NCBI GenBank assembly: GCA_031550535.1
Contig: JAVBOM010000083.1
Span: forward strand, 1,366-65,365
Length of the DNA stretch: 64,000 nt
Direction: 5' to 3'
Source: Eubacteriales bacterium
GTDB lineage: Bacteria; Bacillota; Clostridia; Christensenellales; Aristaeellaceae
The notes beneath the pieces are model-generated. The model was not told the DNA's origin. It worked only from the letters and a program-made list of their open reading frames with translations, and made no database searches. Below, one piece after another: positions 1,110-54,118 of the stretch. The position numbers were made by a program, and so were the translations under genes. How positions within the stretch are numbered: position 1 is the stretch's first letter; every line of letters starts with the position of its first letter.

Positions 1110-1233
1110 AGAGGCAAGGATTCCTCACGGAATCCTTCCATGACGGCGGCGCTGATTTGCAAAATCGGGCGCCATAAGAGGATTCCGCAAGGAATCCCTA
1201 TCTTAGGTGCCCGATTCTTCGCATCAGCGCCGC
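1110..1233. repeat. R63 repeat cluster, composite of hairpin-core-hairpin-core modules in mixed orientation
   Basis: aggattcctcacggaatcc, then gacggcggcgctgatttgcaaaatcgggcgccat, then gaggattccgcaaggaatccc, then gtgcccgattcttcgcatcagcgccgc. Matches the consensus shared by the other copies. Confidence 0.85.
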
Positions 1234-1313
1234 AAAAATAAAAACGCTCAAACCAAAAAGGGCCGTGCGCCTCTATCCAGCGCATGGCCCCATTCGTTTT
1301 CATCGCGTTTGAA

Positions 1314-1703
1314 TTATGCTTCCATCGTATCCAAGGCGTCCATCTCATCCAGCGGCATGTCGGCGTCTTCCTCGTCCTCGCCCGCCTCTTCGTCGTCGTC
1401 GATCGTGCCGACGCCCTCGATTTCGTCCAGGCTGCTGACCGGGTCCGGGTTGATCTCCGCAGCCTCCACGGAGGTGTCCTCCTCGCTGTCCGTGGACAGC
1501 ACCTCAATGGAGCGTATCTCCGACAGGCAGCTCCTGCACATGTCCTCACCCGGCAGCGCCGGCACCTCGCCACAGACGGAGCAGAGCAGCGTCGCCTCGT
1601 CCTTTGTTCGCGTCCCGCGCACCTCTTCGCGGCACACGGTACACAGATCGCCGTCATCCAAAATATAGTTTAACTCACAGCGTTGACATTTTTTAAGGCC
1701 CAT
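1314..1703 (-). CDS. hypothetical zinc-ribbon protein with an acidic C-terminal tail
   Basis: Four CxxC pairs (CQRC, CTVC, CSVC, CRSC) followed by a D/E-rich tail. ATG at 1703 is preceded by GGGAGGA. The ORF track starts at an upstream TTG (1721). Confidence 0.6.
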   Translation of the reverse strand: MGLKKCQRCELNYILDDGDLCTVCREEVRGTRTKDEATLLCSVCGEVPALPGEDMCRSCLSEIRSIEVLSTDSEEDTSVEAAEINPDPVSSLDEIEGVGTIDDDEEAGEDEEDADMPLDEMDALDTMEA

Positions 1704-1806
1704 GCCATCCTCCCAGCTCAATATTACGTTGGATTATCGATTACAGGCCATGGCCTGAGCGACGGATGCACTATAGCACATTGTCGCTTTAAGGGCAATA
1801 GCTTTT

Positions 1807-3171
1807 TCACACGTTCACCATTTCGTCACTTCGCGTAACATTTCTGATCCATTTATCGCCACGCAGGCGGAAGAACGCAATAATCCACTTGAAGAATTGG
1901 TCAATTCGCAGCACCACGAAGATCCAGGGCAGCGGCAGCTTCAGCACGAACGCGGCCACATACGCCAGCGGCAGCACCACCAGCCAGCCGCAGATCATGT
2001 CCACCGCCATCACAAACCGGCTGTCCCCCGCGCCCCGGTTGATGCCCACAAAGCAGGACGCGTGGTATGTCGTCCCGACGAGCGACACCGCCGCCAGCCC
2101 GATCATCTCAACCGCCAGCGACTGCGCCTCCCCGGAAACGCCGTACAGCGACGCGAACGGCGCGCGGACCAGGAACACCACCGCCGCCATCACCACGCCG
2201 ATCATCAGGAACATGATCTGGATCGTGTTGGAATACGCGCGGGTGCGCTTGTAATCCCCCGCGCCCACCGTCTTGCCGATCACCACGCACGCGCCGCCCG
2301 CCAGGCTGGATGTGAAGATCATGCCGAGCTGCATCAGCGAATCGCCAATGCTGTTGGCCGCGATCATGCGCTCGCCCAGGCGGCCGATGATCGCCACCTT
2401 GCAGAACCCCACAATGGCCCACTGCGCGTCCACAATGCCCACCGGCAGCCCGTAGCGCAGGTAGTCCTTCAGCAGCAGCCTATCCCCGCGCAGCAGGTCG
2501 CGCGGGTGGAGCGGAAACCGCTTCTGCACCCGGAACGCGTACACCCAGACGACGCAAAGCTCCAGCACCCGCGCCAGCACCGTGGCCAGCGCCGCGCCAC
2601 GCGCGCCCATCGCGGGCATGCCGAGCTTCCCGAAGATGAACACGTAGTTCAGGCCGATATTGGCCACCAGCGACAGAAACGTCGTGTACAGCGTCACCTT
2701 GACGATCTCCACGCTGCGCAGCATGCCCACCAGCGCCATGGAGACCGCGTAGGGCAGGTACGACCAGCACACCAAGGTCAGGTACGGCACCGCCGCCCGG
2801 ATCACTTCCGGATCGGATACCAGAAGGCCCAGCACCCCCGCCGGGAACAGCGAGATGGCCAGCACGAACGCTGCCGCGACCGCCAGGCATATCCACGACA
2901 CGAACGCGAAAATGCGCCGGATGCGCGCCGTGTCCCGCTTGCCCCAGTACTGCGAGATCAATACGGATGACCCGCCGATCAGCCCGGTGATCGTCGCGGT
3001 GAAAAAGGCGGTCGCGCCGTTTGACTGCGCCACGCCCGCGTACACCGTGTCGCCCAGGGTGGAAACCATCATGTTATCGGCCAGAACGACCAGAAAGGAT
3101 ACCAGCCCCTGAAGCGCCGACGGCAGGGCGATGGTGAAAATCGTGCGGTAAAACGCGCGGTCACGGACCAA
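1807..3171 (-). CDS. MATE family efflux transporter
   Basis: 454-aa polytopic membrane ORF with MATE-like N-terminus (FYRTIFTIALPSALQ). TTG start preceded by GGGGGGAG. Confidence 0.8.
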   Translation of the reverse strand: MVRDRAFYRTIFTIALPSALQGLVSFLVVLADNMMVSTLGDTVYAGVAQSNGATAFFTATITGLIGGSSVLISQYWGKRDTARIRRIFAFVSWICLAVAAAFVLAISLFPAGVLGLLVSDPEVIRAAVPYLTLVCWSYLPYAVSMALVGMLRSVEIVKVTLYTTFLSLVANIGLNYVFIFGKLGMPAMGARGAALATVLARVLELCVVWVYAFRVQKRFPLHPRDLLRGDRLLLKDYLRYGLPVGIVDAQWAIVGFCKVAIIGRLGERMIAANSIGDSLMQLGMIFTSSLAGGACVVIGKTVGAGDYKRTRAYSNTIQIMFLMIGVVMAAVVFLVRAPFASLYGVSGEAQSLAVEMIGLAAVSLVGTTYHASCFVGINRGAGDSRFVMAVDMICGWLVVLPLAYVAAFVLKLPLPWIFVVLRIDQFFKWIIAFFRLRGDKWIRNVTRSDEMVNV

Positions 3172-3188
3172 GGTGAGCTCCCCCCTTC

Positions 3189-3252
3189 GATGGCGGCGCT
3201 GATTTGCAACATCGGGCGCCGTAGGCGAATTCCGCCAGGAATCCTTACCTCT
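3189..3252 (-). repeat. R63 repeat copy in the leader region of the MATE gene
   Basis: gatggcggcgctgatttgcaacatcgggcgccgtaggcgaattccgccaggaatccttacctct. Confidence 0.9.
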
Positions 3253-5857: not shown

Positions 5858-7525
5858 ATGGCCAAGTATGCGATCGGCGTGGACTTTGGCACGCTGTCGG
5901 CGCGCGCGCTCGTCGTGGAGATCGGCACCGGGCGCGAGCTGGCGGCCCGGGCGATGGACTATCCGCACGCCGTGATGGACGAAGCGCTGCCGGACGGCAC
6001 GCGCCTTGGCACGGACTGGGCGCTGGAGCATCCCCGGGATTATCTGGACTGCCTGGCCGGCACGATTCCCGGGGCCATGGCGGACAGCGGCGTGGACCCG
6101 AAGGATGTCGTGGGCCTGGGGATCGATTTCACGGCCTGCACGCTGATGCCCTGCAAGGCGGACGGCACGCCGCTGTGCTTCCTGCCGGACTTCGAGCACA
6201 ACCCGCACGCGTACATCAAGCTCTGGAAGCATCACGCCGCGCAGGACCACGCCGACCGGCTGAACGCCATTGCCGGGGCGCGCGGGGAAACGTTCCTGAA
6301 CCGCTACGGCGGCAAAATATCGTCCGAATGGGCCATTCCGAAAATCTGGCAGACATTGGAACAAGCGCCCGAGGTGTACGCCGCCGCCGACCGCTTCATT
6401 GAGGCGGCCGACTGGGTCATCTGGCAGCTCTGCGGCCGCGAGGCGCGCAACGCGTGCACGGCCGGGTACAAGGCCATGTGGTCCAAGCGCGAGGGGTATC
6501 CTTCGGAGGACTTCTTCGCCGCGCTGGACCCGCGCCTGCGCCGTGTCGTGGAGGAGAAGCTCTCCCGCGACATCTACCCCATCGGCGCGAAGGCGGGCGA
6601 GATCACGGCAGAGGCGGCGAAGCTCACGGGCCTGCCGGTGGGCACGGCGGTGGCCGTCGCGAACGTGGACGCGCACGTCGCCATGCCGGCGCTCGGCATC
6701 ACGGACCCGGGCAAGCTGCTGATGATTATGGGCACATCCACGTGCCACATCGTGCTGGGGCGCGAGGAAAAGCTGGTGCCCGGCATGTGCGGCGTGGTGG
6801 AGGACGGCGTCATCCCTGGGTACATGGGCTTTGAGGCGGGCCAGAGCTGCGTGGGCGACCACTTCGCCTGGTTTGTGGAGAACTGCGTGCCCGAGCGGTA
6901 TATGACCGAGGCGCGCGAGCGCGGGCTGCACATCCAGCAGCTTTTGACCGAGAAAGCGGCGAAGCTGGCCGTCGGCGAAAGCGGGCTGCTGGCGCTGGAT
7001 TGGTGGAACGGCAACCGTTCCGTGCTGGTGGATGCGAACCTGACCGGCGTGATGCTCGGCATGACACTGCAAACCAAGCCCGAGGACATGTATCGCGCGC
7101 TGATCGAGGCGACGGCCTACGGCACCCGGATGATCGTGGACACGTTCGCGGAAAACGGCGTCGCCATCGACGAATTGTACGCGTGCGGCGGCATCGCGGA
7201 GAAAAACCCGATGATGATGCAGATCTACAGCGATGTGGTGAACCGCGAAATCTTCATCTCCCGCTCCGCGCAGGCCCCGGCGCTGGGCAGCGCGATGTTC
7301 GGCGCGGTCGCGGCCGGGAAAGCGAACGGCGGCTATGACACCATCCAGGGCGCGGCAAGGGAGATGGGCGGCGTGAAGGACACCGTGTACCGGCCCATCC
7401 CGGAGAATGTGGCCGTGTATGACCGCCTGTTCGCCGAGTACCGCCGCCTGCACGACCTGTTCGGGCGCGGCGGGGATAACGCGCTGAAAACGCTGAAGAA
7501 GATCAGGCAGGAGGCGCAGAAGTAG
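5858..7525 (+). CDS. araB: L-ribulokinase
   Basis: From memory, close full-length resemblance to Bacillus AraB ([53 protein letters not shown]). GAGGAGG RBS. The TAG stop at 7523-7525 lies inside an R63 copy. Confidence 0.9.
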
Positions 7526-7581
7526 GGATTCCTGCCGGAATCCCCTTATGGCGCCCGATTCTTCGAATCAGCGCCGCCATC
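7519..7581 (+). repeat. R63 repeat copy overlapping the araB stop codon
   Basis: gaagtagggattcctgccggaatccccttatggcgcccgattcttcgaatcagcgccgccatc. Confidence 0.95.
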
Positions 7582-7665
7582 ATAGAGGCATTAACAATGC
7601 CCGCACGGCAGATTTTTCTGTCCTGCGGGCATTCTTGTTGTATGGCAGCGCAAACCGGATGCTGC

Positions 7666-8331
7666 TTATGGGAGGGAAGGCACGATATTCACGGACAGCA
7701 CGGCTTCCGTTTTCCCGTTTATTTCGACGCGCTGAATGATAAGCAATGTTGTCTCCGTGCCCACAGTGGACACCCAGCGCCGCATATGCCTGCCCGTGAC
7801 GACGGCAAGGGCCCCTCCCCCCGGCAAGGATATTGTGTCGGCAATGTCGTCCTCGTCAACCCGGGCGTCCGGTTCGCCGTACAGTTCGGTCAAAGCGTCG
7901 GCCAGCGTATCGTATAGCACGGCGAGATTGCCCTGCTCCCCATTGAAACTATAGTGCACCGACGAAAGCCCATCGTCTATGAATTCAATCGATGTGGAAG
8001 CAGTATAACCGTTCAGCCGGGCGCTGTTCTTGAAATTGTAGTCGCAGAATTCTTGGGACACGGAAGTCAGCTTCATCGCGTCCGCGAAATCAATGCCCAG
8101 TGCGTTCTCCACCTCTTCCGGCGAGGAACCCCAGGCGATTCCGTGGTACGCGTAGTCGCCATCCTCATTTCGCAATGTCGTAAGGTCGATTTCGTCCGTC
8201 CCATCGAAAGCGGTAAACAACCCCGTCAGCACAAGAAGCAACCCGATCCATGCGCACTTCCTTGACGGCGGCGCTGATTTGAAACATCGGGCGCCATAAA
8301 AGGATTTCGCAAGAAATCCATTCCTCTTCAT
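7666..8331 (-). CDS. hypothetical exported protein whose N-terminal codons 2-23 are an R63 copy
   Basis: ATG 8331 is preceded by AGGGAGGGTG. A hydrophobic segment WIGLLLVLTGLFTAF follows the repeat-encoded stretch. Confidence 0.55.
   Translation of the reverse strand: MKRNGFLAKSFYGARCFKSAPPSRKCAWIGLLLVLTGLFTAFDGTDEIDLTTLRNEDGDYAYHGIAWGSSPEEVENALGIDFADAMKLTSVSQEFCDYNFKNSARLNGYTASTSIEFIDDGLSSVHYSFNGEQGNLAVLYDTLADALTELYGEPDARVDEDDIADTISLPGGGALAVVTGRHMRRWVSTVGTETTLLIIQRVEINGKTEAVLSVNIVPSLP
8264..8328 (-). repeat. R63 repeat copy inside the 5' coding region of ORF 7666..8331
   Basis: gacggcggcgctgatttgaaacatcgggcgccataaaaggatttcgcaagaaatccattcctctt. The consensus TAG position reads AAT in this copy, which keeps the frame open. 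Confidence 0.85.
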
Positions 8332-8471
8332 TGCGGATCACCCTCCCTAAACACCGCTCCTTCCGTCCTTATCGCCCAATCTTCTATTGTTATTTTATGC
8401 CATTTCCCACAATTTGTCAACCGTACGCATCGCCATTTGGGCAAAAACTCGCGCCGCCTTCAAAGGCATAC

Positions 8472-9452
8472 TTACAGCATTCCCCGCAGCTTTCCAATAT
8501 CCCTGTCCGTGCGGTTGCCATGGATGGGGATATTCGCCAACTCCGCCTCAATCTGCGCATATTCGCCCGCCGTCAGCATGACGTCCGCCGCGCCAAGGTT
8601 CTCCTCAATCCGCTGAACGCTCCGCATGCCGGGAATCGGCACGATGAAATCCCGCTTGCGCAGCATCCATGCGAGGGAAATCTGCGCGGGCGTGCTCCCT
8701 TTGCTTGCCGCGAACGCGCGGAGCATATCCAGCAGCGGCTGGTTCGCGCGGAAGTTGTCCTCGCTGAAGCGGGTGATGACCCGCCGCACGTCGTCGCCGG
8801 TGTAGCCGCTCCCGGCCGTCGTTTTGCCGGACAGGAACCCGCTGGCCAGCGGCGAAAACGGCACGAACCCGATCCCCAGCGCCTCGCACGCCGGGAGGAC
8901 ATCCTTCTCAAACATCCGCTCCATCATCGAGTACTCGCTCTGGATGGCGGCAATCGGCGTGACAGCGTGCGCCCGCTGGATCTCGTCCTCCGTTGCCTGG
9001 GACTGTCCCCAGCCGAGGATTTTGCCCTCCCGGATTAACTCCCCCATCACCCGCGCCACGTCCTCCACCGGGATGTCCTTGTTGACCCTGTGCTGGTAAT
9101 ACAAGTCGACATGATCCATCGAAAGCCGCCCGAGTGACGCGTCCAGGTGCGCGCGGATGCTCCGCCGGAGCCGCTCAAACGTCCCCGCCTCAGCCAGCGT
9201 GTCAATGTGCAGCTTCGTCGCGACGACAACCCGATTCCGGATCGGCCCGAGCGCCTCGCCGACCAGCTTTTCGTTGTCGCCCGCGCCATAGCCTTCCGCC
9301 GTGTCGAAAAAGGTACACCCCAGGTCAAACGCCCGGCGCATCAGCCGGATCGCCTCCGCCCGGTCCGGTCCGGGCCCGTATCCGTGGCTGAACCCCATGC
9401 AGCCAAAGCCGACGGCGGATACCGTCAGACCGCCAAGCCTGCGCATTTTCAT
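8472..9452 (-). CDS. aldo/keto reductase
   Basis: 326 aa. GFGCMGFS, FFDTAEGYG and LGWGQS family motifs. GAAGGAAG RBS. Confidence 0.85.
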   Translation of the reverse strand: MKMRRLGGLTVSAVGFGCMGFSHGYGPGPDRAEAIRLMRRAFDLGCTFFDTAEGYGAGDNEKLVGEALGPIRNRVVVATKLHIDTLAEAGTFERLRRSIRAHLDASLGRLSMDHVDLYYQHRVNKDIPVEDVARVMGELIREGKILGWGQSQATEDEIQRAHAVTPIAAIQSEYSMMERMFEKDVLPACEALGIGFVPFSPLASGFLSGKTTAGSGYTGDDVRRVITRFSEDNFRANQPLLDMLRAFAASKGSTPAQISLAWMLRKRDFIVPIPGMRSVQRIEENLGAADVMLTAGEYAQIEAELANIPIHGNRTDRDIGKLRGML

Positions 9453-9484
9453 GCCGCGTCACTTCCTTCGTATGTCTTGCCTCC

Positions 9485-11875: not shown

Positions 11876-11883
11876 GCATAGCG

Positions 11884-11941
11884 GTGGGGTTTCTTGCGAA
11901 ATCCCTTTATGGCTCGGAATCTTCGGTTCCTCGCCGCCGCC
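11884..11941 (+). repeat. R63 repeat, divergent subfamily copy
   Basis: ggggtttcttgcgaaatccctttatggctcggaatcttcggttcctcgccgccgcc. The same variant core occurs at 33368-33410. Confidence 0.65.
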
Positions 11942-13864: not shown

Positions 13865-13880
13865 ACGCCACCTCCTAGAT

Positions 13881-13940
13881 GACGGCGCGGATTGGAGAAA
13901 TCAGCGCCATAAAGGAATTCCGCGAGGAAACCTTACCTCG
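13881..13940 (-). repeat. R63 repeat copy (degenerate), upstream of sigK
   Basis: gacggcgcggattggagaaatcagcgccataaaggaattccgcgaggaaaccttacctcg. Confidence 0.75.
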
Positions 13941-14004
13941 TCAGCGGCGCTGATTCGAAGAATCGGGCGCCATGAGGGGGATCCCGCAAGGAAACCCTTC
14001 CGCT
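13941..14004 (-). repeat. R63 repeat copy in tandem with 13881-13940
   Basis: tcagcggcgctgattcgaagaatcgggcgccatgagggggatcccgcaaggaaacccttccgct. Confidence 0.85.
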
Positions 14005-14116: not shown

Positions 14117-14127
14117 GCTTATTCTGA

Positions 14128-14222
14128 TAAGGTAAGGATTCCTTGCGGAATCCTCTGATGGCGCCTGATTCTTCAAATCCTCGCCGCCGTCGCGGTACGG
14201 ATTCCTTTCAGAATCCCCTTCA
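14128..14222 (+). repeat. R63 repeat copy plus one extra hairpin-1 module, inverted relative to 13881-14004
   Basis: aaggtaaggattccttgcggaatcctctgatggcgcctgattcttcaaatcctcgccgccgtc, then acggattcctttcagaatcccc. Confidence 0.85.
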
Positions 14223-14257
14223 TAGCTCGCGACTTCCGGTTGCGCGCCGCCGTTTTG

Positions 14258-16040: not shown

Positions 16041-16627
16041 TCAACAAATGTCAATCCAGTAGACTTGCTGCTCAATACCCTCAAACGTATTCTCGCAGGT
16101 CAAAATGCCGCCACAACCAACGGCGGTTTTAGGCGAAGGAAGATTATCCTTGTCGCATACAATCATCACTCTGGGGATGTTCAGCATACGCGCCTCATCC
16201 AGAACAAGCAAGAGCTGTTGTTTCCCATAGCCCTGTCGCCGCTCCGACGGGCGAACTCCATACCCGATATGCCCGCCATGCCGCTCCAGTTCGGGCGTTA
16301 GCGAATGGAGCAGCTGGACGCTCCCGATGATTTTTTGATCGGTTTTTCGGACGGAAAGAAGGTGCTTGCGTGCACACCGTTTCTCAGCGTCTCCTTTTCT
16401 ATTGAAAGGGCAACCGCAAGCCACGCGTTAAAATCAGCGGCACGGGCTAGGCCGCAGCTTCCGTGACGGCGGCGCTGATTCGAAGAATCGGGCGCCATGA
16501 GAGGATTCCGCCAGGAATCCTTACCTCTGATCGCGGTTTCGCCAACGTCAACGTATTCCTGTCTGTACTCCCAGATGGCTTCTTTCATCTCGGCAGAAGA
16601 CCATATGAGCGTTAAATCTTTCGCCAC
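16041..16627 (-). pseudogene. GNAT N-acetyltransferase disrupted by an in-frame R63 insertion and a frameshift
   Basis: The N-terminal part (16298..16627) and the C-terminal part (16041..16424; HIGYGVRPSERRQGYG, CDKDN) are in different frames. The switch is at the ttctttcc run near 16348-16355. 22 repeat-encoded codons (RGKDSWRNPLMAPDSSNQRRRH) sit between GETAI and GSCGLARAADF. Confidence 0.7.
16463..16528 (-). repeat. R63 repeat copy inserted in-frame (66 nt) in the GNAT gene
   Basis: gtgacggcggcgctgattcgaagaatcgggcgccatgagaggattccgccaggaatccttacctct. Confidence 0.9.
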
Positions 16628-20231: not shown

Positions 20232-20293
20232 GACGGCGGCGCTGATTCGAAGAATCGGGCGCCATAAGGGGATTCCGCAGGAATCCCTACCTC
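20232..20293 (-). repeat. R63 repeat copy in a divergent intergenic region
   Basis: gacggcggcgctgattcgaagaatcgggcgccataaggggattccgcaggaatccctacctc. Confidence 0.95.
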
Positions 20294-32076: not shown

Positions 32077-32293
32077 CCCCCTTTTGCAAGAAAATCTTTA
32101 GGCGGCATCATTTCCTTCACGGCCGCGCTGGTTTGGGAAATCGGGCGGGGCTGGGACTTCCGAATCAACGCCATCAAGGAGATGCGCGAGAAATCCCAAC
32201 CTTGGCCGCGTGCCTTGCCTCCGCGCCCTGCTTCCCGTATAATGTCCCCGTCATCAAATACACGCGGCTGCGCGGCGCGAAGGAGCAAAAAAC

Positions 32294-33367: not shown

Positions 33368-33410
33368 GCAGGGATTTTCATGGCTCGGAATCCAGGTTCC
33401 CCGCCGTCGT
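33368..33410 (+). repeat. R63 repeat, divergent subfamily fragment
   Basis: gcagggattttcatggctcggaatccaggttccccgccgtcgtc resembles the 11884-11941 variant. Confidence 0.5.
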
Positions 33411-33431
33411 CACTGAAAGAGAGGCCCCTAC

Positions 33432-34289
33432 ATGCAGCAGCTATGGCAGCAGCTCTCGAGCCTGCTTTGGAGCATCATAAGCCGCCCGACGATCGCCGAC
33501 ATCCTCGACATCATCATCGTGGCCTTTTTGCTCTACAAACTGCTCATGCTCACGCGCGATACGCGCGCCTCCCAGGTGCTAAAGGGGCTCGGCGTCCTGT
33601 TCATCCTGTACTGGGCCAGCGACTGGCTCGGGTTCAAGGCGCTGAACTGGATTTTGAACATGGTGGTCAACAGCGGCGCGGTCGTCATTGTCGTCCTGTT
33701 CCAAAATGAGCTGCGCCGCGCGCTGGAACAGATTGGCCGCGCGGGCTCCACACGGCTGGACCGCATTAGGTCCGGCGAGAGCCGACGATTGCAGGATCAC
33801 ATCGTGTCCGAGCTGATCGGCGCCATGCAGAACCTTTCCCGCCGCCGCGTCGGCGCGCTGATCGTCATTGAGCAGCAAACGGGCCTGCAGGACGTGATCG
33901 AGAGCGGCTCGCACATCGACGCCGAAATTTCCGCCCCGCTCATTGAGAATATCTTTGAGCCGAACACCCCGCTGCACGACGGGGCAATGATCATTCGCGG
34001 CCACCGCATCGAGGCCGCCGCGTGCATCCTGACCCTGAGCGAGGACACCGGCATCAGCCGGGAACTCGGCACGCGCCACCGCGCCGCGCTCGGCGTGTCC
34101 GAAACGACCGACTGCGTCGCCCTGATCGTCTCGGAGGAGACGGGCATCATCTCCATGGCGCGCGGCGGGCGGCTGACCCGCCACCTGGACGCCCGTTCGC
34201 TCAGGCAGATTCTGGAGGAGATATACGGCGGCGAGGGCAATACGAACCTGCTCTCCCTGCTGCTGACCAAGCGCAAGCCCAAGAAGTAG
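33432..34289 (+). CDS. cdaA: diadenylate cyclase CdaA
   Basis: Three N-terminal TM helices plus a DAC domain (GALIVIE, PLHDGAMII, LGTRHRAALG). The TAG stop at 34287-34289 lies in the first R63 unit. Confidence 0.9.
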   Translation: MQQLWQQLSSLLWSIISRPTIADILDIIIVAFLLYKLLMLTRDTRASQVLKGLGVLFILYWASDWLGFKALNWILNMVVNSGAVVIVVLFQNELRRALEQIGRAGSTRLDRIRSGESRRLQDHIVSELIGAMQNLSRRRVGALIVIEQQTGLQDVIESGSHIDAEISAPLIENIFEPNTPLHDGAMIIRGHRIEAAACILTLSEDTGISRELGTRHRAALGVSETTDCVALIVSEETGIISMARGGRLTRHLDARSLRQILEEIYGGEGNTNLLSLLLTKRKPKK

Positions 34290-34471
34290 GGATTTCTGGC
34301 GAAATCCCCTTATGGCGCCCGATTGTTCCAATCAGCGCCGCCGTCGAAGTAGGGATTTCTGACGAAATCCCCTCATGGCGCCCGATTGTTCCAATCAGCG
34401 CCGCCGTCGAAGTAGGGATTTCTGACGAAATCCCCTTATGGCGCCTGATTGTTCCAATCAGCGCCGCCGTC
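34283..34471 (+). repeat. three head-to-tail R63 units with an exact 63-bp period
   Basis: Units at 34283-34345, 34346-34408 and 34409-34471, each gaagtagggatttctg(g/a)cgaaatcccct(t/c)atggcgcc(c/t)gattgttccaatcagcgccgccgtc. Confidence 0.95.
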
Positions 34472-35833: not shown

Positions 35834-35850
35834 ACCAAGAAGTTCCGCAT

Positions 35851-36053
35851 GAAGTAGGGATTCCTGGCGGAAGCACCTCGGTATTGTCGCGCTGGCTGCC
35901 TGGCCTTGTCGCGCTCGCCCTTCGGCCGATCACTCTGTGCCGCAGGGCACCTTCGGGTCGCTGTATCGCCCACTGGGCGCGCTTCCCTTCGGTGTTGGCG
36001 GGCGCTTCCCTCCGGTACCCCTTATGGCGCCCGATTCTGTGAATCAGCGCCCC
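35851..36053 (+). repeat. R63 copy split by a 144-bp insertion in hairpin 1
   Basis: gaagtagggattcctggcggaa (35851-35872), then the insert (35873-36016), then acccct-tatggcgcccgattctgtgaatcagcgcc (36017-36053). Confidence 0.75.
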
Positions 36054-36179
36054 ATCATTGAATCATTTTTCCATTCCCAATCGTTCTTATGGACAGACAG
36101 CACAGATACGTTAGGGTGCTTACACGCGCTTTGTCGGCGGCAGGACTTTTCCCTGCGCCGTTTGCAGAGGGGGGATACA

Positions 36180-37523: not shown

Positions 37524-37587
37524 AGAGGTAGAGATTTCTTGCGGAATCCCTTTATGGCGGTTGACTCTTCGAATCAGCACCGCCGTC
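37524..37587 (+). repeat. R63 repeat copy
   Basis: agaggtagagatttcttgcggaatccctttatggcggttgactcttcgaatcagcaccgccgtc. Confidence 0.85.
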
Positions 37588-38365: not shown

Positions 38366-38574
38366 TTCTCTACTGACGATGCGCGCATCAAGCTTCGTAG
38401 ATTATACCCGTGTGTTTCAGTGACGCGTGATACTAGGGCAGAACCTTGAAGGCGCTGAATATTCGCGCAAACGCGCGGTGAACCTGCCCGCCGGTCAATG
38501 TCATGCCCGACACGGGCGCATGAAACTGATCATTTGCGCTGTATTGATCGGGCATGTGCCGCCACCTTCGTGCG

Positions 38575-38622
38575 GCAGGGATTTCTGACGGAATCCCCTG
38601 ACGCCGCCTGATCTCCACCAAA
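38575..38622 (+). repeat. degenerate R63 fragment
   Basis: gcagggatttctgacggaatcccctgacgccgcctgatctccaccaaagg. Confidence 0.55.
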
Positions 38623-42479: not shown

Positions 42480-42640
42480 GAGACGTTCTCCTCTTGAGTA
42501 ATTTTTATTCGTCATATGTGTATTTATATGCTACCAAGGTTTTCCATTTTTGTCAAGATCACAGGGTCGAAAAGTTTCAGAAAATACGCCGATTTTCGAT
42601 GACAAGGCGCAAAGTCTATGGTACAATGGCCGCGTTTACG

Positions 42641-42700
42641 GAAAGGATTCTTCGAGGAATTTCTCTTCGGCGCCCGATTTTTCAAATCCACGCCGCCGTG
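42641..42700 (+). repeat. R63 copy (diverged) in the 5' leader of the aminotransferase gene
   Basis: gaaaggattcttcgaggaatttctcttcggcgcccgatttttcaaatccacgccgccgtg. Lies between an ATGACA-N17-TACAAT promoter-like site (42599-42627) and the AAGGAGGGA RBS. Confidence 0.75.
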
Positions 42701-45010: not shown

Positions 45011-45055
45011 AACACGCCGTCCGCGCGATTTGCTGCGCGGGCGGCGTGTTTCTGT
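45011..45055 (+). terminator. rho-independent terminator
   Basis: ACACGCCGTCCGCGC-loop-GCGCGGGCGGCGTGT followed by TTCTG. Confidence 0.6.
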
Positions 45056-45182
45056 GGCGGCGGCGCTGATTTGAAAAATCGGGCGCCATAATGGGATTCC
45101 GCAAGGAATCCTTTCCTTAACGACGGCGCTGATTCGAAAAATCGGGCGCCATGAGAGGATTTCGCAAGAAGTCCTTACCTCT
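45054..45182 (-). repeat. two tandem R63 copies ending 3 nt from the stop codon of the minus-strand gene
   Basis: gtggcggcggcgctgatttgaaaaatcgggcgccataatgggattccgcaaggaatcctttcctt, then aacgacggcgctgattcgaaaaatcgggcgccatgagaggatttcgcaagaagtccttacctct. Confidence 0.9.
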
Positions 45183-47002: not shown

Positions 47003-47164
47003 ACACACACAACCTCCCCGATTTGGGATAGGGTTATTATACGGGTAATTGTGTCGTGCGTCAACCAATTTGTAACATTTTTTACTTATTTTGTTAATTT
47101 ATCGAGATTTATCCGTCTTGTTTTCGTAATGTTATAGTATCCCCCCACCACACACAATCCTGCC

Positions 47165-47246: not shown

Positions 47247-49085
47247 TCAGTCTACGGTGATTCCGGTCAGGCTCTTCCACGCCGCCCGGATGGCCTTCTG
47301 GTGCTGGACACCGTAGTTCGGGTCATTCTTGGAAACCTCGTCCATATCCCGCAGGAAGTGGATGCAGAGGTGGCCGTCAAAGTTGTTATTGGCGATGTTG
47401 CCGCTCAGGTGCGGGGTGTTGTGCATCGTCGCCAGCGTCCATGTACCGCTCGGGAGCTGCACCCATACAGTCTTGGGCGTCCACGTGGTCACGTTGCCGA
47501 ACGCCGCGTTCATGTAGAGTGTGTCCTCCGCCGTCAGCGGCTCGCTGTCAAAGTGCCGGCCCAGCGAAAGCGCCTTGATCTTGAAGCCATACCCGCTCAC
47601 GGGATCGTACACCTGCACAACGCTGTTGGACTTGAGCGACGGCTTCACGCTGTTGAACCAGTGCAGGAGCTTGACGGACGAAGCGGCCGGTCCCGCGATC
47701 TTCCCGGCGCCGCCGGAGCCGCTGCCCGAGCCGGACGGCGTTCCGCCCGACGAAACAGGGTTATCGCTGTACAGCGTGGTCAGCGTGCCGCTGCCCGCAA
47801 CGCCGTCGGACTTCAAGCCGTTCGCCTTCTGGAACGCGATGACGGCCGCCTTGGTCGCGGTGCCATAGAACCCCGTGGCACTGGCGGATAGGTATCCCAG
47901 CGTTTTCAGCTTCTTCTGCATCGTCGTCACGGCGGCGGACTTCATGCCTTCTTTCAGCGTCGCGTATGTCGTGGTTCCGCCCGCTGTGCCCGACGCATTC
48001 GGCTTTGCGTTGCTGCTGTACAGCATCATCTGCGTCGCCGATCCGGCTACGCCGTCGGCGGTCAGGTTGTGCGCCCGCTGGAAACCCTCCACCGCGATCT
48101 GCGTCTGCGACCCGTAGAACCCCGTCGCGTTCGCAGTCATGTACCCCAGATCCTTCAGCGACTGCTGCAGCGTCTTGACCGCGTTGCTCGTCATGCCGCG
48201 CTTCAGCGTCGTGTAATCCGCCGCGGTGCCCGATGTGGCCGATGGGGTGGCTGTGGCGGTGGTTCCGTCCGCGGCCTTCGCGCCGTTGGAGTAGAGCAGG
48301 TTCTGCGTCACCGTGCCCGCCTTGCCGTCCGATGTGAGGCTGGATTTTTTCTGAAAGTCAACGACCGCCTTCTGCGTTGCCGCGCCGAAAATGCCGTCCG
48401 CCTTGCCGGACAGGTAACCCAGCGCGATCAGACGCGACTGCAGCGATTGGACGTCGTTCCCCCGGTCGCCCAGGCGCAGCGTCTTGGTCGAAGGCGTCCC
48501 GGCCGTGGACGACGTGCCAGGCGTGGTGTCCGCCGTCGTTGTGCCCGCCGTGGACGTGGCGGTGGTGCCCGCGGCCGCGCCGGTCGCGGCAATCGCGGTG
48601 TTGGCGTACATGATCCGCTGCGTTTCGCCGCCCGCGATCCCGTCCGCCTTTATTTTGTTTGATTTCTGAAAGCTCTTGACGGCTTCCACCGTCGACACGC
48701 CGAATACGCCGTTCGCGCTGCCGGTCATGTAGCCCAGCTCGATCAGGCGCTTCTGCACTTCCGCCACATAGGGGTTCTCGTCCCCCTCCTTGAGCGGATA
48801 GTAGCCGCTATTGGTAAGCTCCATCAGGTACGATGTGCTTGCGTACCCCGTATGGCCCTTATAGGAGGTCTTTGTCCATCCGCCCGAGGAACCCAGCACA
48901 TCAAGCTCCGTGCCGCCCGGGATCGTCACCAGGGTGTCGCTCTTGGTATTCGCCTCTTTGCGCAGGCGGAGGTTGCACCGCGCCACACGCGTCTGCGCCG
49001 CCACAGCCGAGGACACCGGCCACGCCGACGCCACCATCATCGTCACCGCCAGCAAATACGCCCCGATGCGTTTCATCATACGCAT
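47247..49085 (-). CDS. secreted SH3b + 5x peptidoglycan-binding protein, paralog B (tandem duplicate)
   Basis: Collinear with 45185..47002 and identical at most positions. GGGGAGGG RBS. Confidence 0.75.
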   Translation of the reverse strand: MRMMKRIGAYLLAVTMMVASAWPVSSAVAAQTRVARCNLRLRKEANTKSDTLVTIPGGTELDVLGSSGGWTKTSYKGHTGYASTSYLMELTNSGYYPLKEGDENPYVAEVQKRLIELGYMTGSANGVFGVSTVEAVKSFQKSNKIKADGIAGGETQRIMYANTAIAATGAAAGTTATSTAGTTTADTTPGTSSTAGTPSTKTLRLGDRGNDVQSLQSRLIALGYLSGKADGIFGAATQKAVVDFQKKSSLTSDGKAGTVTQNLLYSNGAKAADGTTATATPSATSGTAADYTTLKRGMTSNAVKTLQQSLKDLGYMTANATGFYGSQTQIAVEGFQRAHNLTADGVAGSATQMMLYSSNAKPNASGTAGGTTTYATLKEGMKSAAVTTMQKKLKTLGYLSASATGFYGTATKAAVIAFQKANGLKSDGVAGSGTLTTLYSDNPVSSGGTPSGSGSGSGGAGKIAGPAASSVKLLHWFNSVKPSLKSNSVVQVYDPVSGYGFKIKALSLGRHFDSEPLTAEDTLYMNAAFGNVTTWTPKTVWVQLPSGTWTLATMHNTPHLSGNIANNNFDGHLCIHFLRDMDEVSKNDPNYGVQHQKAIRAAWKSLTGITVD

Positions 49086-52064: not shown

Positions 52065-52172
52065 CCGTCCCCCCCCCCGTCGTCCTCGTTGACATTTATC
52101 CCCAATGACAGTACAATGGAACACACAAATGCGCGCGCGGCCGCGCCGGGCGCGCACAAGGGGGAATATATA

Positions 52173-52622
52173 ATGAAGGTAATCCTGCTACAGGATGTGA
52201 AGGGAACCGGCAAAAAGGAGCAGATCGTCGAGGTCTCCGACGGCTACGCGCGCAACTTCCTGCTGCCGCGCAAGCTCGCGGCGGAAGCGACCAGCACGGC
52301 GATGAACGCCGTCCGCCGGGCCAAGTCCGCAGAGGATCACCGCGAGAGCCAGCGCCGCCAGGAGGCGGTGGAAACGGCCGAACGCCTTCGCCGCAAGGAG
52401 ATCCACCTCACCGCGCGCGCCGGCGAAAAGGGCCGTCTCTACGGCTCCATCACCGGCCAGGAAGTGGCCGACGCGCTGGAAACCCAGCACGGCATCAAGG
52501 TGGAGAAGCGCCGCGTGGAGCTTGCCGAGCCGATCCGCGCCGTGGGCGACTATGAAATCTCCGTATGGCTGTACGCGGGCGTTACCACGCCCATGCGCGT
52601 CGTGGTCACGGCGGACGCGTAA
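52173..52622 (+). CDS. rplI: 50S ribosomal protein L9
   Basis: MKVILLQDVKGTGKKEQIVEVSDGYARNFLLPRKLA. Confidence 0.95.
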   Translation: MKVILLQDVKGTGKKEQIVEVSDGYARNFLLPRKLAAEATSTAMNAVRRAKSAEDHRESQRRQEAVETAERLRRKEIHLTARAGEKGRLYGSITGQEVADALETQHGIKVEKRRVELAEPIRAVGDYEISVWLYAGVTTPMRVVVTADA

Positions 52623-53947
52623 TGCAGTCCGCCCCCCTCCCCCCCACCAACCAGGACGCCGAGCGCAGTGTGCTCGGCGCCATGCTGCAGGACCCTGAGG
52701 CCGTACTGCTCGCGCAGGAATTGCTGGCGGCGGAGGCCTTTTATCAGCCTGCCCACCGGGAAGTGTTCGACGCGATGATCGGCCTCGCGCGCCTGGGCAA
52801 GCCGGTCGACCTGATTACCGTGGACGAGGAACTGTCGCGGCGTGGCACGCTGGAAGGTATCGGCGGCACGGAATACCTCGTGCAGCTCACCCAATACGTG
52901 CCCACGACCGCCAACGTCCGCGCCTACATCGAAATCGTCGACGAGAAGCACACGCTCCGCCAACTGATCGACTGCGCGAACGGCATCCTCCGCGAGAGCT
53001 ACTCGCAGGACAAGCAGCTCGGCGAGCTACTCGGCCAGGCGGAAAAGGGCGTTTTTGACATCTCTATGCGCAAAAGCGGCGCGGACACCCTCGTGCACAT
53101 CCGCGACGTGCTCACGCAAACATACGCGCGCATTGAGGCGCTCTCCAAGCTGAAGGGCGCGATTGACGGCGTCGCGACCGGCTTTTCGGACCTGGACCGT
53201 TTGCTGACCGGCCTGCACGGTGGCGAGCTCGTGCTCGTCGGCGCGCGGCCGTCCATGGGCAAGACCGCCTTCGCCATCAACGTGGCGCAGACGGCCGCCC
53301 TTCGCGGCGGCAAGACGGTGGCCGTGTTTTCCCTGGAAATGCCGCGCGAGCAGATCGCCATGCGCATGCTGTGCACGGCGGCTAAGGTGGACATGCAGGC
53401 CGTTCGCCACGGCACCATCACGGACGACGACTGGATGAGCCTCACGACCGCGCTGGGCCCGCTTGCCGCGTCCAGCATGTACCTGGACGACACGCCGGGC
53501 ATCACCCCGTCCCAGCTTCGCTCCCGCTGCCGCCGCCTGATGGCGGAACGCGGGCTGGATATGATCGTCGTGGACTATTTGCAACTCATGGGCGCGGACC
53601 GGCGCAGCGACAACCGGCAGGTGGAGGTCGCGGAGCTGTCCCGCCAGCTAAAGGGCATCGCGCTGGAGCTGCACATTCCGCTGGTCGCCTGCGCGCAGCT
53701 TTCACGGGCCAACGCGCAGCGTTCGGACAAGCGCCCCATCCTCAGCGACTTGCGCGAATCCGGCTCCATTGAGCAGGACGCGGATGTCGTGATGTTCCTC
53801 CACCGCGAGGAATACTACAATCCGGACACGCCCGACAAAAACATCGCGGAGATCATCGTGCAAAAACAGCGGAACGGCCCGCTCGGCACGGTGAAGCTCG
53901 CGTGGCTCGGGCAATACACCGAGTTTCGCAACCTTTCCCCCGGGTAA
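52622..53947 (+). CDS. dnaB: replicative DNA helicase DnaB
   Basis: ERSVLGAML N-terminal domain, Walker A GARPSMGKTAF, and SLEM, QLSR, SGSIEQDADVV motifs. TAATG overlap with rplI. Confidence 0.95.
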   Translation: MQSAPLPPTNQDAERSVLGAMLQDPEAVLLAQELLAAEAFYQPAHREVFDAMIGLARLGKPVDLITVDEELSRRGTLEGIGGTEYLVQLTQYVPTTANVRAYIEIVDEKHTLRQLIDCANGILRESYSQDKQLGELLGQAEKGVFDISMRKSGADTLVHIRDVLTQTYARIEALSKLKGAIDGVATGFSDLDRLLTGLHGGELVLVGARPSMGKTAFAINVAQTAALRGGKTVAVFSLEMPREQIAMRMLCTAAKVDMQAVRHGTITDDDWMSLTTALGPLAASSMYLDDTPGITPSQLRSRCRRLMAERGLDMIVVDYLQLMGADRRSDNRQVEVAELSRQLKGIALELHIPLVACAQLSRANAQRSDKRPILSDLRESGSIEQDADVVMFLHREEYYNPDTPDKNIAEIIVQKQRNGPLGTVKLAWLGQYTEFRNLSPG

Positions 53948-54056
53948 ATTTCCACTCTTACCACTGTATATAGACCTTTCCCGCGCGGGTGTGGTATATA
54001 TTTGGTACTGGTCTTTTTGCAAAAAATCCTATATACTGTTGCTATGGTGAAATTCC

Positions 54057-54118
54057 GAGGTAGGGATTTCTGGCGAAATCCCCTTATGGCGCTCGATTTT
54101 TCAAATCTGCGCCGCCAT
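54057..54118 (+). repeat. R63 repeat copy overlapping the putative start of the caspase-like gene
   Basis: gaggtagggatttctggcgaaatccccttatggcgctcgatttttcaaatctgcgccgccat. Confidence 0.9.

What the first reader, a model, noticed from the sequence alone, without database searches (positions are those of the whole stretch)
1110..54118. Abundant 63-bp two-hairpin repeat family (R63): about 20-23 copies in 53 kb
**Where it occurs.** The same ~63-nt sequence recurs at these positions:
- 1110-1233 (composite)
- 3189-3252
- 7519-7581
- 8264-8328
- 11884-11941 (variant)
- 13881-14004 (x2)
- 14128-14222
- 16463-16528
- 20232-20293
- 33368-33410 (variant)
- 34283-34471 (x3)
- 35851-36053 (split)
- 37524-37587
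- 38575-38622 (degenerate)
- 40207-40266
- 42641-42700
- 45054-45182 (x2)
- 54057-54118

No copy occurs in 45.2-54.0 kb or after 54.2 kb.

**Consensus, read by eye.** GARGTAGGGATTCCTGNCGGAATCCCCTTATGGCGCCCGATTCTTCGAATCAGCGCCGCCGTC.

**Predicted structure.** It folds into two stem-loops:
- GGGATTCC-N4-GGAATCCC
- GGCGC-CC-GATTC-TTC-GAATC-A-GCGCC

**Compensatory changes.** Both stems are kept by compensatory changes between copies.
- Stem 1 is GGATTCC/GGAATCC in most copies, but GGATTTC/GAAATCC in the 34283-34471, 54057 and 8264 copies.
- Stem 2 is GATTC..GAATC in most copies, but GATTG..CAATC in all three 34283-34471 units.

This argues for selection on, or templated copying of, a structure.

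**Interpretation.** The architecture and density recall REP/REPIN, Correia, BOX or RUP-type elements. I cannot place this sequence in any named family from memory. No transposase is present in the window.
Basis: seen in the sequence. Interest (0 to 1): 0.75.

Follow-up and report, generated by a model that had tools for sequence, protein, structure and literature searches.

The report
63-nt two-hairpin mobile repeat family
This stretch of an uncultured gut-type Clostridia genome carries about 26 copies of a previously unnamed 63-base, two-hairpin selfish repeat that inserts in one orientation just before ribosome-binding-site-like motifs, sometimes in frame inside genes; it is a new family of an already familiar kind of bacterial repeat.

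Summary
A covariance model finds 19 full and 7 partial or degenerate copies (plus one weak variant) of a 63-nt unit between 1.1 and 54.1 kb, where chance predicts none. Both hairpins are kept by compensatory changes.

The element is mobile and non-autonomous:
- Seven sister-lineage loci lack it, which gives three orthologous empty sites.
- One copy is an exact 63-nt in-frame insertion in a GNAT gene. A second sits after codon 2 of a lipoprotein-like gene, and its internal TAG has been lost.
- One copy is nested inside another.
- There are no terminal inverted repeats and no target duplication.

New findings:
- The DNA immediately 3' of independent copies follows A-N-G-G-A-A-G (G at +4 in 12 of 14, p=4e-5). 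This motif resembles both a Shine-Dalgarno sequence and the element's own 5' end.
- That one preference explains the positions next to ribosome-binding sites, the 9:1 sense bias and the head-to-tail arrays.

Hairpin 1 has the GTAG-plus-stem layout of REPs. The mobilising enzyme is not in the window. An HUH/Y1 transposase (RAYT or IS200/IS605-like) is inferred, not shown.

No match was found in Rfam, GTDB species representatives, JGI metagenomes, IMG/VR, plasmids or phages. Verdict: a new family of a known kind, of moderate interest.

The parts
1109..1158 (+). 5' half (hairpin 1) of a host copy that is split by a nested copy
   Evidence: CM 33.8 bits, E=6e-9; sequence read
1142..1204 (-). Full 63-nt copy nested in the hairpin 1 / hairpin 2 linker of the plus-strand host copy
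   Evidence: CM 85.7 bits
1174..1239 (+). 3' half (hairpin 2) of the split host copy
   Evidence: CM 31.9 bits
3189..3251 (-). Full copy, sense, ending directly at the ribosome-binding site of the MatE gene (1807-3171) and downstream of a terminator-like site at 3352-3330
7519..7581 (+). Full copy whose TAG serves as the stop codon of the FGGY/AraB kinase gene. Sister loci end that gene two codons earlier.
8264..8326 (-). Full copy inserted in frame after codon 2 of a 221-aa lipoprotein-like ORF (7666-8331, minus strand). Its frame-b TAG is changed to AAT.
11881..11941 (+). Diverged copy (variant B) filling the ylbF-yceG spacer. The site is empty in L083, L084 and L087.
13878..13939 (-). Full copy, sense, 13 nt upstream of the sigma-factor gene start. 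The site is empty in L087.
13940..14003 (-). Full copy, head-to-tail with 13878-13939 but only 70% identical to it
14129..14191 (+). Full copy, antisense to its flanking genes. This locus is the only antisense one among co-directional contexts.
14192..14256 (+). Degenerate copy, head-to-tail with 14129-14191
   Evidence: CM 18.8 bits, E=4e-4
16465..16527 (-). Exact 63-nt in-frame insertion (21 codons) inside a GNAT acetyltransferase gene (16041-16627, minus strand). Junctions are ATCA|GAGGTAAGG...GCCGTC|ACGGAAGC.
20232..20293 (-). Full copy in a divergent promoter region
32142..32205 (-). Degenerate copy with an internal insertion, upstream of the T-box leader.
33368..33413 (+). Weak variant-B relic 18 nt upstream of cdaA
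   Evidence: CM E=0.035; sequence read
34283..34471 (+). Three head-to-tail units (34283-34345, 34346-34408, 34409-34471), 97% identical to each other, in the cdaA-cdaR spacer. The TAG of the first unit is the cdaA stop codon.
35849..35878 (+). Fragment consisting of hairpin 1 only
35992..36058 (+). Degenerate copy, separated from the 35849 fragment by a unique 128-nt stretch
37525..37587 (+). Full copy between convergent genes
38570..38613 (+). Partial copy: hairpin 1 and the start of hairpin 2
   Evidence: CM 29.2 bits
40207..40269 (-). Full copy between convergent genes
42638..42700 (+). Full, diverged copy 22 nt upstream of the aminotransferase gene start, sense
45056..45118 (-). Full copy, head-to-tail with 45119-45181 but only 81% identical to it
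45119..45181 (-). Full copy starting 2-3 nt after the stop codon of the peptidoglycan-binding protein gene (45185-47068, minus strand), sense
54057..54119 (+). Full copy lying in an open frame within the presumed signal-peptide codons (or the 5' UTR) of a caspase-family protein gene (54044-55633)

Best explanation
R63 is a lineage-specific, non-autonomous mobile element of exactly 63 nt.

**Layout.** 5'-GAGGTA[G/A] | hairpin 1 (GGATTCC-N4-GGAATCC) | CYTTAT | hairpin 2 (GGCGC-CC-GATTC-TTC-GAATC-A-GCGCC) | GCCGTC-3'.

**Shown.**
- It inserts without terminal inverted repeats and without target duplication.
- It inserts in a fixed orientation immediately 5' of a purine-rich motif, A-N-G-G-A-A-G.
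- That motif resembles a Shine-Dalgarno sequence, so copies accumulate just upstream of ribosome-binding sites or just after stop codons, and they lie in the sense orientation.
- The motif also resembles the element's own 5' end (GAGGTARGG), so new copies land directly upstream of old ones and build head-to-tail arrays.
- The unit is 21 codons long and two of its three sense frames are open, so it can also persist in frame inside genes.
- Both hairpins are maintained by compensatory substitutions.

**Inferred.**
- The hairpins are the recognition structures of a trans-acting transposase that works on single-stranded DNA. The best candidate is an HUH/Y1 enzyme of the RAYT or IS200/IS605 type, encoded elsewhere in the genome.
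- On the complementary strand the element would then follow that family's rule of inserting 3' of a short specific sequence (CTTCCNT).
- Any effect on mRNA, such as two stable hairpins in UTRs and operon spacers, is a by-product or secondary.
For: **Copy number and family limits.**

**Presence/absence.** No copy is found in seven sister-lineage loci whose RNase J or AraB is 82-89% identical (L001, L083, L084, L087, L089-L091). None is found in 650 kb from 40 other Clostridia loci.

**Three orthologous empty sites.**
- The ylbF-yceG spacer.
- The region upstream of the sigma-factor ribosome-binding site.
- The araB stop codon.

**Insertions inside genes.**
- GNAT gene: the insertion is exactly 21 codons. 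The element-free reconstruction is 173 aa and matches homologs of mostly 173-175 aa at about 70% identity over 98-100% of its length.
- Lipoprotein-like ORF: GGGAGGG lies 8 nt before the ATG and the element follows codon 2. Homologs of 185-196 aa lack about 21 residues at that point. This copy has AAT where the family has TAG or TAA.

**Nested copy.**

**Unit length.** Exactly 63 nt in 15 of 19 copies, and the array period is also 63 nt.

**Target motif in 14 independent 3' flanks**:
- G at +4 in 12 of 14 (p=3.8e-5).
- A at +5 and A at +6, each in 9 of 14 (p=2.5e-4).
- R-G at +3/+4 in 11 of 14, against a background of 0.13 (p=5e-8).
- Eight flanks have GG exactly at +3/+4, and most of these are not ribosome-binding sites: two are in coding sequence, one is nested, three are in a 3' UTR or operon spacer, and one is the ambiguous 54057 site.

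**Tandem partners.** They are not each other's closest relatives (70% and 81% identical, versus 86-89% to other copies).

**Orientation.** 9 sense to 1 antisense among loci that are co-directional or inside a gene, on both DNA strands. Cumulative GC skew falls almost steadily across the window with no sustained reversal.

**Hairpins.** 94.4% of cells are paired, against 90.3% in shuffles (0 of 500 shuffles reach it) and 35-53% when the partners are slid. Pair 46-50 shows three pair types. Folding z-scores are -3.3 as DNA and -2.3 as RNA.

**REP-like tag.** GTA[G/A] in 15 of 19 copies, followed by a 7-8 bp stem, as in published REP tables (PMC2817692; PMC3733652). Group 1 RAYTs are reported in Clostridia (PMC5581495).
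Against: - No transposase of any kind lies in the 64 kb, and the rest of the genome could not be reached. The enzyme is therefore pure inference.
- Units are mostly single or head-to-tail. REP/RAYT systems typically show inverted pairs (REPIN/BIME).
- The two hairpins differ from each other. They share only a GATTC/GAATC core.
- The single-stranded overhangs of 6 nt are much shorter than in IS608-type ends.
- G.U cells (12) and A.C cells (about 8) are similar in number. The structure therefore cannot be assigned to one strand, or to RNA rather than DNA.
- The target motif rests on only 14 flanks from one window.
- Few of the compensatory events are independent.
Confidence: 0.6

Rival explanations
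1. R63 is kept mainly because it serves the host as an RNA element. Transcribed in the sense orientation inside UTRs and operon spacers, its two hairpins would protect mRNA segments from RNase J/Y-type or 3' exonuclease decay, or would tune translation of the adjacent gene. Under this view, that function explains the orientation bias and the covariation.
For: - Orientation is 9 sense to 1 antisense, and it follows the gene strand rather than one DNA strand.
- Copies abut stop codons and ribosome-binding sites.
- A promoter-like site at 8420-8392 would place the 8264 copy inside a transcript.
- The hairpins are stable as RNA at -27.5 kcal/mol and show covariation.
- G.U pairs are tolerated in 12 cells.
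- REPs are reported to act this way (PMC3733652).
Against: - The SD-like target motif explains both the orientation and the position without any RNA function. It also holds at sites that are not ribosome-binding sites.
- A.C cells, which would be G.U on the other strand, are nearly as common (about 8). There is no strand asymmetry.
- Sister lineages manage without the element at the same loci.
- In-gene and nested insertions look selfish.
- Neither hairpin is followed by a U-tract in either orientation.
Confidence: 0.2
2. R63 is moved by a different class of enzyme. Candidates are an IS110-type recombinase guided by a bridge RNA, an IS91/ISCR-type rolling-circle HUH enzyme, or a tyrosine recombinase that recognises folded single strands as integron integrases recognise attC.
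For: Insertion is site-specific, orientation-specific and free of target duplication, and the element has no terminal inverted repeats. All of these enzyme classes share those properties. No enzyme is visible in the window.
Against: - No such gene lies in the window.
- The GTAG-plus-hairpin layout is the hallmark of RAYT substrates.
- To my knowledge, IS110 and IS91 are not known to produce abundant 63-nt derivatives.
Confidence: 0.12
3. Copies spread without a dedicated transposase, by template switching or gene conversion from tandem donor arrays. Microhomology between the element's 5' end and GGAAG-like targets would guide the process.
For: The 3' flank resembles the element's own 5' end. 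Tandem arrays exist, and the 34283-34471 array is clearly a local amplification at 97% identity.
Against: - The 5' junction shows no matching microhomology. Only A or T at -1 is favoured.
- Junctions are precise to the nucleotide at 63 nt in unrelated contexts.
- Hairpin covariation would have no explanation.
Confidence: 0.05
4. R63 is a classical MITE: a deletion derivative of a DDE insertion sequence, with terminal inverted repeats and target-site duplications, like Correia or RUP.
For: It is small, abundant, mostly intergenic and folds into hairpins.
Against: The ends (GAGGTA... and ...GCCGTC) are not inverted repeats. The GNAT and ylbF-yceG junctions show no duplication of 2 nt or more.
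Confidence: 0.02

Closest known systems
GTAG-tagged REP sequences mobilised by RAYT (Y1/HUH) transposases (Nunvar 2010, PMC2817692; Di Nocera 2013, PMC3733652; Bertels 2017, PMC5581495)
   Same: - Hairpin 1 is GTA[G/A] followed by a 7-8 bp G+C-rich stem and a 4-nt loop.
- Local copy number is high and the copies are mostly extragenic.
- Stem variants are compensatory.
- There are occasional insertions inside genes.
- Many copies lie downstream of coding regions and are probably transcribed.
- No transposase sits next to most copies.
   Different: - The mobile unit is bipartite. A second, different hairpin and a conserved GCCGTC tail always travel with hairpin 1.
- Units are single or head-to-tail. 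The REP survey found head-to-tail dimers absent or rare, and REPINs are inverted pairs.
- The host is a Clostridia lineage, and no Firmicutes appear in the 2013 survey.
- No RAYT could be examined.
IS200/IS605-family elements and their miniature derivatives (PATE-type) (from my own knowledge of the family)
   Same: - Subterminal hairpins at both ends.
- No terminal inverted repeats and no target duplication.
- Strand- and orientation-specific insertion next to a short specific sequence.
- The element end resembles the target.
   Different: - The two hairpins are not alike apart from their GATTC/GAATC core.
- The overhangs are only 6 nt.
- The target (CTTCCNT on the complementary strand) is longer and looser than the usual 4-5 nt.
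- Orientation follows the gene strand rather than a replication strand.
- No TnpA or TnpB gene is available.
Rickettsia palindromic elements (RPE) (from my own knowledge; RPE-4 and RPE-6 are mentioned in PMC3733652)
   Same: Palindromic repeats that insert in frame into protein-coding genes and are tolerated as extra peptide segments.
   Different: RPEs are 100-150 bp, occur in Alphaproteobacteria and are unrelated in sequence. Most R63 copies are intergenic.
Mycobacterial interspersed repetitive units (MIRU) (from my own knowledge)
   Same: - Units of 40-100 bp in head-to-tail arrays within operon spacers.
- One orientation relative to transcription.
- Overlap with the stop codon of the upstream gene.
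   Different: MIRUs are not hairpin elements and vary mainly in tandem copy number. R63 is dispersed as single units with conserved hairpins.

Membership tests
REP/RAYT system | A short imperfect palindrome carrying a conserved GT[A/G]G tetranucleotide at its 5' end | tested here: met
   Hairpin 1 has GTAG in 9 and GTAA in 6 of 19 copies, followed by GGATTCC-N4-GGAATCC. Compare the REP table in PMC2817692.
REP/RAYT system | A single-copy RAYT (Y1 transposase) gene flanked by the REPs | not testable with these tools
   No Y1_Tnp or other transposase domain is present in the window. The rest of the genome is not retrievable. The ORF that lies between inverted copies at 7519 and 8264 is a lipoprotein-like protein, not a transposase.
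REP/RAYT system (REPIN/BIME organisation) | Units predominantly arranged as inverted pairs that can fold into one long hairpin | tested here: not met
   There are four head-to-tail arrays and about 11 single units. The only inverted arrangements are one cluster (13878-14256) and one nested copy.
Classical MITE (Correia, RUP and similar) | Terminal inverted repeats and a target-site duplication | tested here: not met
   The ends GAGGTA... and ...GCCGTC are not complementary. The junctions ATCA|...|ACGGAAGC in the GNAT gene and TAG...|...|CCTCGAAAGG in the ylbF-yceG spacer show no duplication.
BOX elements | Modular boxA-boxB(n)-boxC architecture | tested here: not met
   The unit is a fixed 63 nt with no variable internal module.
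IS200/IS605-derived miniature element | Subterminal hairpins at both ends, no inverted repeats, no duplication, and insertion next to a short specific target | tested here: met
   There are two subterminal hairpins, the junctions carry no duplication, and a flank motif is present.
IS200/IS605-derived miniature element | A cognate TnpA (Y1) whose full-length element carries the same ends | not testable with these tools
   No such gene is present in the window, and no match was found in plasmids, phages or IMG/VR.
Any Rfam RNA family | A score at or above the family's gathering threshold | tested here: not met
   The only Rfam hit in the window is a T-box leader. A permissive scan of the triple array gives nothing better than E=1.4.

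The most novel reading that the evidence does not exclude
R63 and an unseen partner enzyme form a REP/RAYT-like, vertically inherited system in Clostridia with a new logic. The mobile unit is a bipartite pair of hairpins, and its insertion is aimed at Shine-Dalgarno-like motifs, possibly on the non-template strand that transcription exposes. The element would then systematically place structured RNA directly in front of ribosome-binding sites and behind stop codons, and the host may have co-opted it to set operon mRNA stability or translation.
Probability: 0.15. Interest if true: 0.65.

Novelty: new member of a known kind. Interest (0 to 1): 0.45.

Why it matters
- **Wider range for this element type.** It extends GTAG-type hairpin repeats to an uncultured Christensenellales-like Clostridia lineage. 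The 2013 survey of tagged REPs listed no Firmicutes.
- **A clean natural example of target choice shaping a genome.** A single preference for an SD-like motif that resembles the element's own 5' end accounts for four observations: position beside ribosome-binding sites, sense orientation, head-to-tail arrays, and tolerated in-frame insertions in genes.
- **Practical consequences for MAG annotation.**
  - Such repeats can mislead gene calling. The record's own annotation starts the caspase-family gene at an internal Met, which drops the signal peptide.
  - The GNAT gene appears as two ORFs. That split comes from a separate frameshift near 16330, not from the in-frame R63 insertion.
  - The repeats supply stop codons to araB and cdaA.
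  - If the local density held genome-wide, a genome of about 2.5-3 Mb would carry on the order of 1,000 copies. This is an extrapolation, not a measurement.

Tried and rejected
- **Exact-pattern scans.** A scan of 185,579 GTDB species-representative genomes gave 0 hits. JGI metagenome contigs gave two hits and IMG/VR gave two. All four are chance matches to part of hairpin 2 and lack the rest of the element.
- **BLAST searches.** The consensus has no match in plasmid or phage collections.
- **Reaching the rest of the genome.** The cluster look-up gave no accession.
- **Rfam.** Nothing at gathering threshold or in a permissive scan.
- **Terminal closing helix.** RNAfold suggested a GGU/GCC helix closing the two hairpins. 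It is only 75% paired and shows no compensatory change, so I rejected it.
- **Strand test.** Comparing G.U with A.C cells to assign the structure to one RNA strand was inconclusive (12 versus about 8).
- **Intrinsic terminator.** Rejected. No T-run follows either hairpin on either strand, and separate terminator-like sites exist nearby.
- **tRNA-like origin.** ARAGORN finds nothing.
- **RAYT between inverted copies.** The ORF between the copies at 7519 and 8264 is a lipoprotein-like protein.
- **CGTC-tagged REP reading of the GCCGTC tail.** Not adopted. I could not confirm that the position of the tag matches the published families, which have A/T-start stems and a CCA tail.
- **TAG reassignment.** Considered because of the in-frame TAG in yceG, then rejected. 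TAG ends 14 of 52 genes normally.
- **The 128-nt stretch at 35878-36005.** It is not repeated elsewhere in the window.

Full report
**1. The observation**

Dinucleotide-preserving shuffles give about 0.01 and 0. Iterated nhmmer and a covariance model built from 19 aligned full copies recover all listed positions.

- The model gives 26 hits with E<1e-3: 19 full copies and 7 partial or degenerate ones.
- The 33368-33413 "variant" is weak (E=0.035). It clearly resembles the diverged copy at 11881.
- No hit better than E=0.01 lies in 20.3-32.1 kb, in 45.2-54.0 kb or beyond 54.2 kb.
- Fifteen of the 19 full copies are exactly 63 nt.
- Together the copies make about 1.6 kb, or 2.5% of the window. 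They occupy 17 of 36 intergenic gaps of at least 50 nt, and 16 of 28 in the first 45 kb.
- Mean pairwise identity is 79%, and the similarity pattern is star-like around consensus-like copies (7519, 16465, 20232). This is a diverged family in unique flanks, not an assembly artefact.

**2. Host and context**

The window has about 62% G+C. It encodes ordinary chromosomal genes, including RNase J, YlbF, MltG/YceG, CdaA-CdaR, DnaB, L9, AspRS and HisRS, and it holds one T-box leader.

- RNase J is 82% identical to that of Candidatus Avichristensenella. The nearest other records are 84-89% identical. The nearest AraB is 83% identical and comes from a Eubacteriales MAG.
- The host is therefore an uncultured Christensenellales-like Clostridia lineage.
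- Its own record exists in NCBI (P0001 is 100% identical, on a contig of 65,644 bp), but the look-up tools would not return it.
- No ORF in the window carries a transposase or integrase domain.

**3. Structure**

The consensus is GAGGTA[G/A]GGATTCC-TKGC-GGAATCC[C/T]C-TTAT-GGCGCCCGATTCTTCGAATCAGCGCC-GCCGTC.

On the 19-copy alignment the two-hairpin structure is strongly supported:

| Measure | Value |
|---|---|
| Cells forming a standard pair | 94.4% |
| Same, column-shuffled controls | 90.3% (0 of 500 shuffles reach the observed value) |
| Same, with 3' partners slid by 1-3 columns | 35-53% |

Double changes are concentrated at three pairs:

| Pair | Pair types |
|---|---|
| 46-50 | C-G 7, U-A 6, G-C 3 |
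| 15-22 | C-G 11, U-A 7 |
| 9-29 | G-C 10, A-U 3 |

- All four combinations of the states at pairs 15-22 and 46-50 occur. Even so, the U-A state at 46-50 largely marks one subfamily, so independent events are few.
- Both hairpins share a GATTC/GAATC core, and in each hairpin the covarying pair is the fifth pair of that core.
- RNAalifold recovers the same two hairpins.
- The consensus folds at -27.5 kcal/mol as RNA (z=-2.3) and at -16.7 kcal/mol as DNA (z=-3.3).
- A terminal closing helix suggested by RNAfold is not supported.
- G.U cells (12) and A.C cells (about 8) are similar in number. The structure cannot be assigned to one strand, or to RNA rather than DNA.

**4. Evidence that it is mobile**

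*(a) Absence from relatives.* Seven loci from sister lineages (L001, L083, L084, L087, L089-L091) have no copy. Neither do 40 further Clostridia loci totalling 650 kb.

*(b) Orthologous empty sites.*
- The ylbF-yceG spacer is about 10-20 nt in L083, L084 and L087. In the window it is 83 nt, and a copy (11881-11941) accounts for the extra length, with alignable sequence on both sides.
- The sigma-factor ribosome-binding site (AGGAGGTGGCGTATG) is conserved in L087, but the sequence upstream of it there is unrelated. In the window a copy ends 3 nt from that site.
- AraB ends at TAG in L084. In the window it runs two codons further and stops at the element's TAG.

*(c) An insertion in a GNAT gene.* The copy at 16465-16527 lies inside a GNAT acetyltransferase gene.
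- The ORF reads ...GETAI-RGKDSWRNPLMAPDSSNQRRR-H-GSCG....
- Eight aligned homologs read GETxI-N-GSCG with no gap, and homologs are mostly 173-175 aa.
- The net insertion is exactly 63 nt: ATCA|GAGGTAAGG...GCCGTC|ACGGAAGC. No duplication flanks it.

*(d) An insertion in a lipoprotein-like gene.* The copy at 8264-8326 lies after codon 2 of a 221-aa ORF.
- The ATG is preceded at 8 nt by GGGAGGG.
- Homologs of 185-196 aa begin MK(K) followed directly by the hydrophobic segment. They lack about 21 residues.
- In this reading frame the family's TAG or TAA would stop translation, and this copy alone reads AAT at that position.

*(e) A possible third case.* The copy at 54057-54119 may lie in the signal-peptide codons of a caspase-family protein. 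The start codon is uncertain.

*(f) A nested copy.* A minus-strand copy (1142-1204) sits in the linker between hairpin 1 and hairpin 2 of a plus-strand copy.

**5. Target and orientation (new)**

I took the 14 independent copies that are not followed by another copy and examined the bases immediately 3' of the element:

| Position | Commonest base | Count | p |
|---|---|---|---|
| +1 | A | 7/14 | 0.0085 |
| +3 | G | 9/14 | 0.011 |
| +4 | G | 12/14 | 3.8e-5 |
| +5 | A | 9/14 | 2.5e-4 |
| +6 | A | 9/14 | 2.5e-4 |
| +7 | G | 9/14 | 0.011 |

- The flank consensus is therefore A-N-G-G-A-A-G. R-G at +3/+4 occurs in 11 of 14, against a background of 0.13 (p=5e-8).
- The base 5' of the element is A or T in 14 of 15 cases.
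- The three degenerate copies that were not used in the test also have G at +4 and AA at +5/+6.
- The motif belongs to the target and not to the element. It encodes the conserved N-G-S of the GNAT protein. It also forms the pre-existing ribosome-binding sites at the empty sites, and the array period is 63 nt.

The motif resembles the element's own 5' end (GAGGTARGG). That explains why arrays are strictly head-to-tail with no spacer. It also explains why tandem partners are not each other's nearest relatives:
- 13878 and 13940 are 70% identical, and 45056 and 45119 are 81% identical, whereas each is 79-89% identical to its closest copy elsewhere.
- Those arrays therefore grew by independent insertions.
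- The 34283-34471 triple, at 97% identity, is a local amplification.

The motif also resembles a Shine-Dalgarno sequence. That explains why many copies end 0-20 nt before a ribosome-binding site. It also explains why, in co-directional or in-gene contexts, 9 loci are sense and 1 is antisense (two-sided binomial p of about 0.02).

Orientation follows the gene strand on both DNA strands, while cumulative GC skew falls almost steadily across the window. A replication-strand bias is therefore not the cause.

**6. Mechanism**

*Shown:*
- a precise 63-nt unit;
- no terminal inverted repeats and no target duplication;
- site- and orientation-specific insertion;
- hairpins conserved by compensation;
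- no transposase nearby.

*Inferred:* mobilisation in trans by an enzyme that recognises folded single strands. The most likely candidate is an HUH/Y1 transposase.

- Hairpin 1 has the GTAG-plus-stem layout of RAYT substrates (PMC2817692, PMC3733652).
- Group 1 RAYTs occur in Clostridia (PMC5581495).
- Read on the complementary strand, the element inserts 3' of CTTCCNT and ends in a similar sequence (CTTACCTC). That is the logic of IS200/IS605 elements.

*Weak points:*
- the enzyme is unseen;
- the two hairpins differ from each other;
- the overhangs are short;
- the inverted-pair organisation typical of REPIN/BIME is absent.

An RNA-level role, such as mRNA protection or an effect on translation, is possible and is not exclusive of mobility. 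It is not needed to explain the data.

**7. Comparison and novelty**

- No Rfam family matches.
- Exact-pattern scans of GTDB representatives, JGI metagenomes and IMG/VR find nothing real, and BLAST against plasmids and phages finds nothing.
- The family is best described as a new family of REP-like or HUH-type hairpin repeats.
- It is not a Correia/RUP-type MITE, not a BOX element and not a REPIN.
- It shares in-frame tolerance with Rickettsia RPEs. It shares sense-oriented operon-spacer arrays with MIRUs.
- The kind of element is familiar. The bipartite unit, the SD-like target and the host phylum are the new features.

Noticed in passing
window 12712-12714: The mltG/yceG gene (11959-13137) has an in-frame TAG at a position where sister loci have CAG (Gln). 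The protein is otherwise intact and 392 aa long. TAG is a normal stop codon here (14 of 52 genes), so this is a nonsense mutation, a pseudogene or a sequencing error.
   Followed up: partly
window 16298-16424 (about 16330): Besides the in-frame R63 insertion, the GNAT gene carries a frameshift near ...HASTFF/LSVRK..., at a run of T and C. It is either a pseudogene or an assembly error.
   Followed up: partly
window 31791-32045 (-): A T-box leader (Rfam RF00230, 95.8 bits) lies upstream of an ABC substrate-binding protein gene (30749-31729). It is the only Rfam hit in the window.
   Followed up: no
window 7516-9570: About 2 kb is absent from sister locus L084, where araB and the RNase J gene are only 425 bp apart. 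The segment holds the lipoprotein-like ORF and an aldo-keto reductase gene. Its left edge coincides with the R63 copy at 7519. Synteny with L001 also ends at that copy.
   Followed up: partly
window 45185-47068 and 47247-49085 (-): Two tandem paralogous genes for SH3 and peptidoglycan-binding repeat proteins. They are 79-93% identical at the DNA level and also contain internal repeats.
   Followed up: no
window 35878-36005: A unique 128-nt G+C-rich stretch separates a hairpin-1 fragment from a degenerate R63 copy. It is not repeated elsewhere in the window and its origin is unknown.
   Followed up: partly
window 54044-55633: The public annotation of this genome (P0241, 460 aa) starts the caspase-family protein at an internal Met, which drops the signal peptide. 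The R63 copy near the 5' end may be the reason. Homologs are 505-522 aa.
   Followed up: partly
window 14002-14128: A terminator-like hairpin (GAAGCGGCC...GGCCGCTTC) sits between the two minus-strand and the two plus-strand R63 copies. This makes the window's only inverted R63 cluster.
   Followed up: no
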